DNA from: a bacterium
Lineage (GTDB): Bacteria; Bdellovibrionota_C; UBA2361; CALJRW01
Assembly: GCA_031385045.1 (NCBI GenBank)
Contig: JANNBC010000011.1
Span: 17,857-81,856 of the forward strand
Length of the DNA stretch: 64,000 bases
Direction: 5' to 3'
The notes under the pieces are model-generated. The model was given only the letters and a program-made list of their open reading frames with translations. It was not told where the DNA came from and did not search any database. The position numbers and the translations under genes were made by a program. Shown in pieces: positions 22,274 to 64,000 of the stretch. Positions within the stretch are counted from its first letter, which is position 1. Each line of letters opens with the position of its first letter.

Positions 22274-22436
22274 ATGGATTTTTACTTGGTTGGTTTAAAC
22301 TACTTGTAGTATGCTTATAGCAAAATTAGATCTTCCTAGTCAAATGAATTATCTTAGATAATCAGTTGGCAAAGGCTTACTAGTCATATACGAAGCGACA
22401 TTAAAATTTACTGAAAATTCAAATGCGCTTAGTATA

Positions 22437-22602
22437 TCAAGTGCGAAGCACTTGAAGCGACCCTTGGGGGTCGCTCAGGCATTGAGTCTTATCCTATAAG
22501 GCTCAATGCTGGGGAATACACATATACTAAAACCTAATAAACTGAAAAAGCCGCGGCTTTTTGCCAAGCAGTTAAGAAAAACCCTAGTGGGTTTTAGTAT
22601 AT
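22437..22602. repeat. Cluster of hairpins (REP/MITE-like or structured ncRNA)
   Basis: Hairpins at 22437-22455, 22456-22475 and 22479-22509; an 81-bp unit 22522-22602 bounded by a 13-bp IR (atatactaaaacc) contains the palindrome aaaaagccgcggcttttt. Confidence 0.7.
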
Positions 22603-60280: not shown

Positions 60281-63200
60281 TTGAAGTCACTTTCCAAAAC
60301 ATATCTTGGTCTCTGCAATAGCTCTGCTAATGCCTGGCAACTATCTAAAATTATTGATTTTTCTGTCACGAATCTAATTATTACCAACTCCAATCAGGAA
60401 GCTCAAAACATTTACCAAGACCTAGCTTACTTCTCAGGAAACCAAAATCTAACACTGTTTAATAACTGGGAGATTTTACCTTACGAAAATAACTCTCCCC
60501 ACCCAGAAACCTCCTCGCAACGGATTAAAGAACTATTAAAAATTACCCAAAACCAACAGACAATCATAACAACAGTTCGAGCCGTTTTACAAAAGATCCC
60601 CGGCACCAAAAATTACCAAGACAACTCCCTAAACCTTGTACTTAAGAAGACCTACCTAGAAGCAGAATTAATTCAAAAGTTAGAACAAATTGGCTATCAA
60701 AGAAGTAGTACTGTCGAGCGACAAGGAGAATATAATTTTAAAGGAAAGGTTTTAGATATTTTTGCTAACCCAGACAACTTACCTATAAGACTAGAATTTG
60801 AATCATCATGTCTAATTAAAATTAGTTGCTTTGACTGGCAAACACAATTAAAAACCGGCGAAGAGAAACAAACTATTTCCATCTTACCAGTTAGAGAAAT
60901 TGACTACACTGTTAGCCCTCAGCAAATTCTAAATGCGATCAAACAGGCCGAGGTGCCAACAAAATATAAATTGGAACTAGAGCAACAACTTGGACTCTTG
61001 CAACTAAACTTTCCGGGGGTTGAAAACTTCACTCCACTATTAAATAAAAGCTTACAATCTCTACTGGAAATTATTCAAACTAATAAATCAAAAACAGCAC
61101 TCTATTTAATCGAGCCAGAAGCCCTAGAAGTTAGCTACCAAAAGTTTTATCAGCAATTAATTAAACGCTATGACAAACTAGCCTTAAAACAAGTAATCGC
61201 TCCGGCTAATGACTGCTTTGAGAGTATCGAATATTTTTTAAAGAATTGTACTGGAGCAACACTGCTTAAGTCTGAACAGAACGAGATTGATCATAAAATA
61301 AATTCCGAGATCATTAAAACACAAAATAACCAAGAAATTATTGCCCTCCAAAATTTAACATACGCTCAAAATCAACATCCAATTAACCCAGTTCTAAACG
61401 ATCTGGAAAAACAAGGTTATCAGATTAAGATCCTGGCTCAATCAGAGATTCGACAATCCCGAATCAAAGCTTTAATTGACCCAAAACTACTTAAGAAAGC
61501 TGAAATCCTAGCAGGCAATATTACTGCTGGCTTCAAAATACTAGCAAAAAAGATTATCTATATTTCAGAAAGTGATCTCTTTCCTGTTATTTCCAGAAGG
61601 CACAAACAAGAGCCGGCAAATACAAGCTTAAAATCTATTCTCAACACACTTTCCACCTTATCAATTGGTGATTTCATTATCCATGAAGATTATGGACGAG
61701 GAATTTATCAAGGACTAAAAAAAATGCAGGTTGCTGAGGCCTCAGGAGATTTTTTACAACTAAAGTATGCCGACAGCACACTCTACCTACCTGTTCAAAA
61801 GATAGGTCGACTGCAAAAATATGTTAGTAATAGCGAACAGGTTCCGGAATTGGATAAATTGGGCTCTAACAAATGGCCAACGCTCAAAAACAAGGTTAGA
61901 AAATCAATTCAAGAGTTAGCTGGAGAGCTTCTAAAACTTTACGCCCTGCGTGAAAATACTCCTGGCCAAACTTGTGCCCCATGGGGAACGCTTGATCAAG
62001 AATTTGCTGATTATTTTCCTTACAATGAAACACCTGATCAACTCCAAGCAATTCAAGAAACAATTTCCGATCTAAGCTCTGGTCAAGTAATGGAGCGATT
62101 AATATGCGGAGATGTTGGATTTGGAAAAACAGAGGTTGCACTACGAGCTGCTTTTAAGGTTGCCTCCGAAGGTTATCAAGTTGCTGTCTTAGCTCCCACT
62201 ACCTTGCTTGTCGATCAGCATCTCAAAAACTTTCGAGAGCGATTTAAATCATTTCCGATTCGCGTCGAAGCAATTTCCCGATTTTACTCAGCAAAACAAA
62301 ACCAAGAGACGCTAAATGAATTAGCGTCTGGGAAGATTGATCTGATTATTGGGACACATGCCCTCTTAAAAAATCGAAATATCTTTAAACGGCTTGGGCT
62401 GTTAGTGATCGACGAAGAACAAAGATTTGGAGTCAAACAAAAAGAACGAATTAAGCAAATGCAAAGTAATGTTCATGTTCTTTCCATGTCAGCAACTCCA
62501 ATTCCACGGACTCTCTACATGTCATTAATTGGCGTAAGAAAAATTAGCACCATTAGCTCCCCACCGGCAGAACGCTTGGCCGTTAAAACATATCTTATGG
62601 ATTATAGTGAAGAAGTCATTGAGGATGCGATCTGGAAAGAGATTCAGCGTGGGGGGCAAGTCTACTTCCTACATAATCAAATTAAAGATCTAGAACTAAC
62701 TTTAGCAAACCTTAAAAAACTAGTTCCTACGGCCCGCTTTGTTGCTGCCCATGGCCAAATGAATGAACATCAACTGGAAAAGATCATGAAAGATTTTATC
62801 AACAAGGAGTATGATGTTTTAATTACGACCACAATCATTGAAAATGGAATCGATCTTCCTAATGCCAACACCATGATTATCGATCGCGCCGATAAATTTG
62901 GCTTATCACAATTATACCAACTACGTGGTCGTGTCGGTCGAAGTAACCGCCAAGCTTTTACCTATCTCTTAGTTCCCAATATTAAAAAGATTACAACTGA
63001 TGCGAACGAACGACTCCGCGCGATGGAAAGTATTAATGACCTAGGTCAAGGATTTCAGCTAGCCATGCGCGATCTAGAGATTCGCGGTGCTGGCAATCTA
63101 CTAGGCAAAGAACAGTCAGGGAACATTACATTAATTGGCTTTGAGCTTTACTCAAAGCTTCTACAAGAAGCTATTTATAACCTTCAAGGACAAGAAACCT

Positions 63201-63661
63201 TAGAATTAATTGAGCCAGAAATTAAATTAACTTTTGATGCCTATATCCCTGATTGGTACTTACATGATCATACGGAGAGAATTGTTATTTACCAGAGAAT
63301 TGCTAGTCAAAATTCTGAGGAACAGTTAGATAGTCTCAAAATGGAAATAGAAGATCGCTATGGGCATCCTCCAATAGAATTGATCAATTATTTCGAAATG
63401 ATGAAGTTGCGTATTCTACTAAAAAGCTTGGGAATCTCAGAGTTAAATTATAAAAATGAGCAATTACTTTTTAAAATTGCAGAGCAGCATCGTCTAGATA
63501 CAGAAAAAGTTTTAGCAGTCTGCCTCTCTCGTCCTAAAAAATATAAACTCAGCCCGCGAGGTATTATTAGTATTCGTACAAATATTAAATACATCAACGA
63601 TCTCAATCTCTTAGCAGAATGGATCAGAACAGAGTTTCTGAAGTTTACTAAAGGAGCATAA
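60281..63661 (+). CDS. mfd: Transcription-repair coupling factor
   Basis: CarD/RID-like HEDYGRG, GDVGFGKTEV, DEEQRFGV, SATPIPRT, QLRGRVGRS, RDLEIRGAG, TRCF C-terminal domain. Confidence 0.97.
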   Translation: MKSLSKTYLGLCNSSANAWQLSKIIDFSVTNLIITNSNQEAQNIYQDLAYFSGNQNLTLFNNWEILPYENNSPHPETSSQRIKELLKITQNQQTIITTVRAVLQKIPGTKNYQDNSLNLVLKKTYLEAELIQKLEQIGYQRSSTVERQGEYNFKGKVLDIFANPDNLPIRLEFESSCLIKISCFDWQTQLKTGEEKQTISILPVREIDYTVSPQQILNAIKQAEVPTKYKLELEQQLGLLQLNFPGVENFTPLLNKSLQSLLEIIQTNKSKTALYLIEPEALEVSYQKFYQQLIKRYDKLALKQVIAPANDCFESIEYFLKNCTGATLLKSEQNEIDHKINSEIIKTQNNQEIIALQNLTYAQNQHPINPVLNDLEKQGYQIKILAQSEIRQSRIKALIDPKLLKKAEILAGNITAGFKILAKKIIYISESDLFPVISRRHKQEPANTSLKSILNTLSTLSIGDFIIHEDYGRGIYQGLKKMQVAEASGDFLQLKYADSTLYLPVQKIGRLQKYVSNSEQVPELDKLGSNKWPTLKNKVRKSIQELAGELLKLYALRENTPGQTCAPWGTLDQEFADYFPYNETPDQLQAIQETISDLSSGQVMERLICGDVGFGKTEVALRAAFKVASEGYQVAVLAPTTLLVDQHLKNFRERFKSFPIRVEAISRFYSAKQNQETLNELASGKIDLIIGTHALLKNRNIFKRLGLLVIDEEQRFGVKQKERIKQMQSNVHVLSMSATPIPRTLYMSLIGVRKISTISSPPAERLAVKTYLMDYSEEVIEDAIWKEIQRGGQVYFLHNQIKDLELTLANLKKLVPTARFVAAHGQMNEHQLEKIMKDFINKEYDVLITTTIIENGIDLPNANTMIIDRADKFGLSQLYQLRGRVGRSNRQAFTYLLVPNIKKITTDANERLRAMESINDLGQGFQLAMRDLEIRGAGNLLGKEQSGNITLIGFELYSKLLQEAIYNLQGQETLELIEPEIKLTFDAYIPDWYLHDHTERIVIYQRIASQNSEEQLDSLKMEIEDRYGHPPIELINYFEMMKLRILLKSLGISELNYKNEQLLFKIAEQHRLDTEKVLAVCLSRPKKYKLSPRGIISIRTNIKYINDLNLLAEWIRTEFLKFTKGA

Positions 63662-63876
63662 TTTGATGGACTTCAACTTTGACTTCATAGTAAATCTCTT
63701 GAGAACTTTTTAGATCTGGTATTATTGCTAATTGCTATTAGTTAAAGTTTGCCAACCAGGTATTCTTTTCTGCCCTCTCGACAACTTGGACAATTCCCGC
63801 GTATCAGCAAATCTCCCTGTTTCTAGCTGTTGATAATCTCTGGAAAGTATATTGCGAAGATATACTAAAACCCATT

Positions 63877-64000
63877 AGAGACTCTGTTAATAGTCAATAA
63901 AAAACAATTAAATGTTTTAAATATGTTGAGTTAAATATCGGTCACTAGACCATTGTTTTCCGTCCCGCACCATCGCATTTAAAGTAATTAGTAGCTTTCT
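63877..64000 (-). mobile_element. Right end of an IS110-family insertion sequence (truncated by the window edge)
   Basis: Transposase C-terminus followed on the minus strand by TTGACT-attaacagagtct-CT, the usual IS110 right-end layout (outward -35 box before a CT core). Confidence 0.7.
63917..64000 (-). CDS. IS110-family transposase, C-terminal 27 aa (partial)
   Basis: Not in ORF track. Minus strand reads RKLLITLNAMVRDGKQWSSDRYLTQHI*, matching the IS110 terminal motif RKL(L)xxLNAMxRDxxxW. Confidence 0.75.
   Translation of the reverse strand, partial: RKLLITLNAMVRDGKQWSSDRYLTQHI

What the first reader, a model, noticed from the sequence alone, without database searches (positions are those of the whole stretch)
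63860..64000. IS110 (bridge-recombinase family) end inserted in a repeat whose empty copy lies at 22577-22602
Seen: after the transposase stop the minus strand reads TTGACT attaac agagtct CT aatgggttttagtatat. The intergenic repeat at 22577-22602 (+) reads aaaaacc CT agtgggttttagtatat. From the CT onward 18 of 19 nt match, and similarity largely breaks down upstream of it. In the empty copy the CT sits at the apex of the hairpin aaaaccc-tagt-gggtttt. Established: IS621-type IS110 elements recombine at a CT core, target REP repeats using a bridge RNA encoded in the non-coding end, and carry a -35 box in the right end that forms a promoter after circularisation. Inference: this element targets a genome-specific palindromic repeat, so its target (about AAAAACC-CT-ARTGG) and the left half of its donor (AGAGTCT-CT) can be read directly.
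Basis: partly seen in the sequence, partly recalled or inferred. Interest (0 to 1): 0.72.

Follow-up and report, generated by a model that had tools for sequence, protein, structure and literature searches.

The report
RNA-guided jumping gene targeting mobile repeat
This is the end of a known kind of RNA-guided jumping gene, present in about ten copies, whose guide RNA steers it into one end of a small repeat that itself appears to move around the genome; it is a clean new example, not a new mechanism.

Summary
The window ends at a contig break inside an IS110-group element. One full copy (1,236 bp, contig C10) encodes an intact IS621-like recombinase. Its left end folds into the two-loop bridge RNA, with exact guides for target GAAAAAC-CT-AATGG and left donor AGAGTCT-CT. 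The predicted circle joins TTGACT and TATGTT 17 nt apart. Of 10 right junctions, 9 lie in the repeat end and 1 in a gene with the same CT-AATGG.

Corrections: filled sites read G(T/A)AAAAC-CT-AATGG. The repeat is not a short REP but a ~215-bp multi-hairpin, TA-flanked element, shared with one same-genus genome and present or absent at matching sites, so MITE-like.

No perfect empty target remains. Most copies that match the left guide best carry CC, a core that published rules disfavour. Circle and RNA were not observed. The scan noted repeat-inserted IS110s on other DNA before. New member of a known kind.

The parts
63917..64000 (-). Last 27 codons and TAA stop of the IS110 recombinase gene, cut by the contig end
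   Evidence: identical to the full 323-aa frame on C10
63879..63916 (-). 38-nt non-coding right end of the element
   Evidence: 3' non-coding length 38; the last 122 nt match C10 exactly in 8 of 10 copies, and the other two carry one extra T
63892..63897 (-). -35-like hexamer TTGACT; 17 nt from TATGTT in the predicted circle
   Evidence: promoter activity is inferred from IS621, not shown
63879..63885 (-). Left donor (LD) AGAGTCT
   Evidence: with the core, a 9 of 9 match to the donor-loop guide at left-end position 134
63877..63878 (-). CT core, right junction
   Evidence: present at 10 of 10 right and 5 of 5 left junctions
63860..63876 (-). Right target AATGG (63872-63876) and the terminal arm of the ~215-bp repeat, left outside the insertion
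   Evidence: 7 of 7 complement to the right target guide CCATTAG; the same flank at 9 of 10 right junctions
22386..22602 (+). Complete empty copy of the ~215-bp multi-hairpin, TA-flanked, MITE-like repeat, between two ORFs
   Evidence: DNA fold z = -9.99
22577..22590 (+). Unfilled 14-bp site AAAAACC-CT-AGTGG (core 22584-22585), 3 mismatches to the guide; probably a poor target
60281..63661 (+). mfd-like gene (context); the element lies about 200 bp downstream, convergent with it
   Evidence: TRCF, CarD_TRCF_RID, DEAD and Helicase_C domains

Best explanation
An intact-looking, recently spread IS110-group (IS621-like) bridge-recombinase element. Shown from sequence: the anatomy, the junctions, the guide matches and the repeat targeting. 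Inferred from IS621: the element circularises at its two CT cores, which joins TTGACT (right end) to TATGTT (left end) and transcribes a ~190-nt bridge RNA from the left end. The target loop pairs GAAAAACCU with the bottom strand and CCAUUAG with the top strand of a 14-bp site 17-18 bp inside the end of a ~215-bp mobile intergenic repeat. The donor loop pairs AGAGUCUCU and GCAAG with the circle junction. The RuvC/Tnp tetramer exchanges strands at CT. A mismatch at left position 2 is tolerated, and repeat copies with a CC core are probably refractory. The repeat supplies dozens of intergenic landing sites.
For: Protein: PF01548 E 8e-21 and PF02371 E 3e-18; IS621 structure 8WT6 E 2.8e-36; D15, E58, D100, D103 and S240 align with IS621's D11, E60, D102, D105 and S241. 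RNA: 5' stem-loop plus two stems with internal loops, z -3.50, 0 of 200 shuffles as good. Three guides are exact (9/9, 7/7, 9/9) and lie in the loops in IS110 order; all three co-occur in 0 of 20,000 shuffles, any two in 2. Targeting: 9 of 10 right junctions in repeat ends, against 8 of 486 unfilled CTAATGG sites. Relatives at 41-47% identity with other targets: the right guide matches its own flank 7/7 in 11 of 13, and donor and donor guide change together; 14 of 25 consensus pairs show a two-sided change in 6 left ends. Independent contigs: a 1,256-nt element contig at depth 112.6 against 14.1 and 13.2 for flanks in run X1, and long element contigs in X2-X4.
Against: No circle junction in the assembly or in contigs of 4 runs, and no RNA data; neither blank is evidence, but expression and circularisation are unshown. 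The right donor guide is weak on its own (CAAG occurs in 10,885 of 20,000 shuffles). The -10 box matches consensus at only 4 of 6. Four of 5 visible left junctions mismatch the guide at position 2. The handshake bases (AU and AA) give, by my reading, 2 pairs before and 1 after strand exchange for insertion, opposite to IS621's 1 and 3. In the relatives' cross-control some non-cognate flanks also reach 7/7, and several relatives are near-duplicates. X1 may be the source sample.
Confidence: 0.9

Rival explanations
1. Site choice needs the repeat's hairpin as well as the guide (a structural gate, as reported for ISPpu10).
For: The site sits in a local hairpin of -4.6 to -6.1 kcal/mol and within a strongly folding repeat. 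A 2026 preprint reports such a gate for ISPpu10. One non-repeat site with a single mismatch to the guide is empty (C17).
Against: One of 10 right junctions lies in an Stf0-like gene with no repeat end (also held by a contig of X1). The 14-bp match alone is rare enough: 0 perfect and 6 one-mismatch sites with a CT core in 2.83 Mb. The hairpin here spans the core instead of lying 5' of it.
Confidence: 0.3
2. The CC-core repeat subfamily spread because it escapes the element (a MITE versus IS110 conflict).
For: No perfect empty target in G000, while one of 34 rows from G001 loci is perfect (L056). Among empty repeat ends within 4 mismatches of the guide, my hand count gives 13 CC against 17 with T at position 9 in G000, and 1 against 20 in G001, where no close relative of the element was found. 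T9 is described as almost invariant.
Against: Eight of the CC copies form one clade, so the counts are not independent. Those copies have diverged from each other while the element's ends are near-identical, so the clade looks older than the burst. Filled versus empty by subfamily is not significant (Fisher p 0.11 with inferred junctions, 0.37 with seen ones, on hand-entered counts). One filled left junction is of the CC subfamily type (C10). G001 was sampled, not scanned whole.
Confidence: 0.12
3. The flank is not a target but part of the element, or the repeat match comes from assembly collapse.
For: Nine copies share 139-141 identical nt at contig ends, including the flank. The C10 path may be a chimeric join of two copies.
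Against: The C10 copy departs from the shared flank 6 nt after the core. Left flanks differ between copies right up to the core region, and dozens of empty repeats continue through the same site. The donor guide matches the bases before the CT, and the target guide the bases after it.
Confidence: 0.02

Closest known systems
IS621 of E. coli (IS110 group; Durrant 2024 PMC11208160, Hiraizumi 2024 PMC11208158, PMC13626964)
   Same: DEDD/Tnp recombinase, CT core, long left non-coding end with a 5' stem-loop and two guide loops, junction promoter, G:T wobble in the right donor guide, commonest natural target one mismatch from the guide, insertion into an intergenic repeat.
   Different: Distant protein (E 2.8e-36; far from identical in the alignment). 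Different target and left donor. A natural 7-nt perfect right guide, against 4 nt in IS621. The handshake pattern is predicted not to favour insertion. The target is a ~215-bp mobile repeat, not a short REP.
ISPpu10 and ISPpu9 of Pseudomonas putida (REP-targeting IS110; bioRxiv 10.64898/2026.03.19.712850, PMC12288879)
   Same: Insertion into a structured intergenic repeat. Left guide tolerant far from the core and right guide strict, which fits the filled sites here.
   Different: ISPpu10's stem-loop lies 5' of the core; here the hairpin spans the core. A role for structure was not tested here.
IS4321/IS5075 (IS1111 group, into Tn21 inverted repeats) and IS1383 (into IS1384 inverted repeats); seen only as titles in reference lists
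   Same: An IS110-superfamily element inserting into the terminal repeat of another mobile element.
   Different: [quoted passage not shown] This element has no such repeats and carries it upstream.
TA-flanked MITEs such as ERIC (PMC3184786, passages)
   Same: For the target repeat: intergenic, short terminal inverted repeats, TA at both ends, no ORF, present or absent at matching sites.
   Different: No match to Rfam. Modular hairpins that reassort between subfamilies. Mobilising enzyme not identified (no PF13358 match in G000).

Membership tests
IS110 group (IS621-like bridge recombinase) | DEDD RuvC-like domain plus Transposase_20 domain with catalytic Ser | tested here: met
   D15, E58, D100, D103, S240 in an open 323-aa frame on C10
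IS110 group (IS621-like bridge recombinase) | CT core at both ends, no longer target duplication | tested here: met
   5 of 5 left and 10 of 10 right junctions; the flanks rebuild the empty repeat with one CT
IS110 group (IS621-like bridge recombinase) | Long non-coding region upstream of the gene, no sub-terminal inverted repeats | tested here: met
   224-239 nt upstream, 38 nt downstream, no perfect inverted match of 6 nt or more between the ends
IS110 group (IS621-like bridge recombinase) | Left end folds into a 5' stem-loop, a target loop and a donor loop with guides in the order LTG, RTG, LDG, RDG | tested here: met
   the RDG rests on position and on conservation in relatives, not on chance statistics
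IS110 group (IS621-like bridge recombinase) | Sigma-70-like promoter rebuilt across the circle junction | tested here: inconclusive
   TTGACT-17-TATGTT (5/6 and 4/6) in the computed junction, with a similar layout in relatives; activity untested
IS110 group (IS621-like bridge recombinase) | Circular intermediate exists | tested here: inconclusive
   not seen in the assembly or in contigs of X1-X4; contigs drop rare forms
IS110 group (IS621-like bridge recombinase) | Bridge RNA is expressed, binds the protein and directs recombination | not testable with these tools
   no RNA holder listed; needs bench work
IS110 group (IS621-like bridge recombinase) | Handshake bases favour insertion (described as highly conserved, not defining) | tested here: not met
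   AU and AA give 2 pairs before and 1 after exchange by my reading, against 1 and 3 in IS621; relatives L010 and L012 also lack the donor-loop pair
IS1111 group | Sub-terminal inverted repeats and guide region downstream of the gene | tested here: not met
   definition from PMC11187229
MITE (for the target repeat) | Non-coding, dispersed, intergenic, with terminal inverted repeats | tested here: met
   39 loci of 140 nt or more, 0 of 39 mostly inside a long ORF although such ORFs cover 83% of the genome; ends TATACT...AGTATA
MITE (for the target repeat) | Evidence of mobility (empty orthologous sites) | tested here: met
   16 of 19 G001 loci had alignable flanks in G000; 1 had a full repeat at the same place, in the opposite orientation; L067 and L033 show near-clean 218-bp and ~245-bp insertions
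MITE (for the target repeat) | Defined target-site duplication and a partner transposase | tested here: inconclusive
   TA and ATAT duplication both fit the L067 site with 2 nt left over; no PF13358 (DDE_3) match in G000, which is 95% complete

The most novel reading that the evidence does not exclude
A bridge-RNA IS110 parasitises a genus-restricted MITE by landing inside its terminal repeat, and the MITE has answered with a CT-to-CC core change that made one subfamily immune and let it spread. That would be a readable arms race between two selfish elements, decided by one base of a known recombination rule.
Probability: 0.12. Interest if true: 0.6.

Novelty: new member of a known kind. Interest (0 to 1): 0.3.

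Why it matters
It adds a distant bridge recombinase (no other homologue found above about 47% identity over its length) whose target, donor, guides and promoter can all be read from one genome. It has a natural 7-nt right guide, a feature engineered into IS621 to improve it. The genome also holds a ready-made panel of filled and empty sites that tests published rules in nature: T at core position 9, tolerance at the far left, and the handshake bases. The mechanism itself is known, so the surprise for a specialist is modest.

Tried and rejected
Reading beyond 64000: impossible, the contig ends. Circle junction: not in the assembly, no such joint in contigs of X1-X4; no weight given. Expression: no RNA holder listed. 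The far half of the interrupted Stf0-like gene: not found in G000, and no homologue in 40 relatives with this query, so the left target of that off-repeat insertion is unknown. Close relatives of the element: none in genome contigs (4 loci), metagenome contigs (10 loci) or 40 related genomes (9 with a match, best 44-46%); a DNA search of G001 and G002 gave only short matches. The empty site of the window's copy: the DNA after mfd in G001 is unrelated and ends at a contig break. Rfam: 0 matches in 4 loci. The linear promoter scan is at shuffle level (7 against 4.9) and cannot see the junction. The two Y1/RAYT-like genes were considered as movers of the repeat; no repeat copy lies beside them, so the idea was dropped. 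The Fisher test of CC against T9 between genomes (p 0.001) was set aside: the counts were hand-entered with unequal filters and the copies are one clade. No covariance model was built. No structure or complex prediction was run; it would only have repeated the likeness to IS621.

Full report
Observation. The window is G000:C5:17857-81856 and ends with the contig. The 27 residues on the minus strand are identical to the end of a full gene on contig C10.

The element. One complete copy is assembled at C10:4542-5777 (minus), 1,236 bp with one core (the first attempt placed the right core one base off, corrected). Its 323-aa frame carries PF01548 and PF02371 and matches the solved IS621 and ISCro4 recombinases (E 2.8e-36 and 1.1e-35). 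D15, E58, D100, D103 and S240 align with the IS621 catalytic residues. The non-coding ends are 224-239 nt upstream and 38 nt downstream, without sub-terminal inverted repeats, which is the IS110-group layout (PMC11187229). The genome holds 10 right junctions and 5 left junctions. Four more contigs (C12, C53, C58, C59) end inside the repeat just short of the site; I infer that they lead into the element, which would give 9 left flanks for the 9 repeat-type right flanks. In run X1 the element contig has depth 112.6 against 14.1 and 13.2 for flanking contigs. This fits 8-10 copies, but the tool warns that depth is no copy number, and X1 may be the source sample.

The bridge RNA. The left end folds into a 5' stem-loop and two stems with internal loops (z -3.50). 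GAAAAACCT (position 67) equals left target plus core, CCATTAG (91) is the complement of core plus right target, and AGAGTCTCT (134) equals left donor plus core. All three together arose in 0 of 20,000 shuffles. The right donor guide, GCAAG, pairs four bases plus a G:T wobble, as G161:dT12 does in IS621; by itself it is not significant. Fourteen relatives were examined beside the own copy, and one without a left core was dropped. In the other 13, at 41-47% identity, the right target guide matched its own flank 7/7 in 11, across 7 other target sequences, and donor and guide changed together. Some are near-duplicates and the cross-control is not clean. Six left ends gave 14 of 25 consensus pairs with a two-sided change. 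The computed circle reads TTGACT, 17 nt, TATGTT. Circle, RNA and activity are inferred from IS621; none was observed.

The target. Filled sites read GTAAAAC-CT (4 of 5 left junctions) or GAAAAAC-CT (1 of 5), and CT-AATGGG (10 of 10 right junctions). The long element contigs of X1-X4 differ from the C10 left flank by 2-5 letters, which I read as the GTAAAAC type. Nine of 10 right junctions lie in repeat ends, against 8 of 486 unfilled CTAATGG sites. The tenth interrupts an Stf0-sulfotransferase-like gene, and that junction is also in an X1 contig. Its other half was not found, so C10 is either a chimeric join of two copies or a rearrangement. Published tolerance (few mismatches in IS621; a strict right guide in ISPpu10) makes it a poor site.

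The repeat. It is about 215 bp, or about 245 bp in a long form, built of five hairpins (z -9.99) with TATACT...AGTATA ends. There are 57 BLAST loci in G000, some of them chance fragments; 39 are 140 nt or longer, and none of those lies mostly in a long ORF. It was found in 1 of 40 related genomes, G001 of the same genus. Of 19 G001 loci, 16 had alignable flanks in G000. One had a full repeat at the same place, in the opposite orientation, and a 38-nt fragment lies near a second. Two show near-clean insertions. It is therefore MITE-like. Its duplication (TA or ATAT) and its mover are unresolved. The element lands 17-18 bp inside the right end, within the terminal arm.

Filled and empty sites. 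G000 has 0 perfect and 6 one-mismatch empty sites with a CT core, 5 of them in repeats. Four empty copies match the guide at all 12 flanking positions but have CC. In IS621 the second core base T is almost invariant and is read by the protein, so these are probably refractory. By hand count, keeping rows within 4 mismatches (chance rows and a few register-shifted rows were dropped), G000 has 13 CC and 17 T9 ends, and the sampled G001 loci have 1 and 20, including one perfect site. Against an escape story: eight of the CC copies form one clade that looks older than the element's burst, the subfamily difference in filling is not significant, and one filled junction is of the CC-subfamily type.

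A departure. The handshake bases are AU and AA. With target AC and donor CT at positions 6-7, I count 2 pairs before and 1 after strand exchange for insertion, against 1 and 3 in IS621 (PMC13626964). This predicts a weaker bias to insertion, yet the element has spread. Two relatives from the same order also lack the donor-loop pair. The count depends on my register and is untested.

Comparison with print. Seen: PMC11208160 (passages; section 10); PMC11208158 (passages; section 8); PMC13626964 (passages); bioRxiv 10.64898/2026.03.19.712850 (parts 1-3 of 8); 10.64898/2026.08.31.748434 (abstract and section 8); 10.64898/2026.08.14.744561, PMC11187229, PMC12288879 and PMC3184786 (passages). IS4321/IS5075 and IS1383 were seen only as reference titles. 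Targeting of REPs and of other mobile elements by this family is in print. Searches (8, 0, 10 and 17 papers, mostly seen as listings only) showed no report of this element, of an IS110-group element in a TA-flanked MITE, or of a repeat escaping by a core change. The library lacks most subscription journals and ISfinder, and no supplements were read; the Durrant orthologue tables could hold this element. The phylum label Bdellovibrionota comes from an earlier scan note and was not checked.

Verdict. It works like IS621 and meets every IS110-group feature that could be decided from sequence, apart from the handshake pattern. New member of a known kind; interest 0.3.

Noticed in passing
G000 contig ends C29, C36, C37, C38, C41, C51, C56, C59, C61: A second multi-copy element with GGTAAGTGACATT at both ends; most of its 11 contig-end flanks begin with a GAGCCWGGCWC-like palindrome, of which the genome has 22 strand matches. 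Family and target duplication not worked out.
   Followed up: partly
L043:357-1322 and L044:898-1824 (G000 C28 and C26): Two Y1/RAYT-like HUH genes of 321 and 308 aa. The second, beside a metK-like gene, is the subject of an earlier scan note.
   Followed up: partly
L002:736-945 (G000 C10:4331-4540): Stf0-sulfotransferase-like gene cut after about 70 codons by the element's right end; the rest was not found.
   Followed up: yes
L009, L010, L011, L012 (G036, G007, G008, G033): IS110 relatives in the same order also appear to sit in short repeats (CTTCGCG- and CTCTGCG-type), so repeat targeting looks general in this clade.
   Followed up: partly
G000 C7:108311-108737, C2:33922-34279, C2:72697-73009, C52:98561-98780: Tandem and inverted pairs of the ~215-bp repeat joined at TATA or ATAT; the two halves of the repeat reassort between subfamilies.
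   Followed up: partly
L039 (G001) and G000 C26:95060-95278: The same intergenic gap holds the repeat in opposite orientations in the two species: independent insertion or inversion.
   Followed up: no
L049, L050, L051, L004, L048: IS110 relatives whose left ends are about 90-130 nt longer, with extra sequence before the guide loops.
   Followed up: no
G000 C19:728-1030 (L003): A weak PF01548 match below the cut-off, possibly a second, decayed IS110.
   Followed up: no
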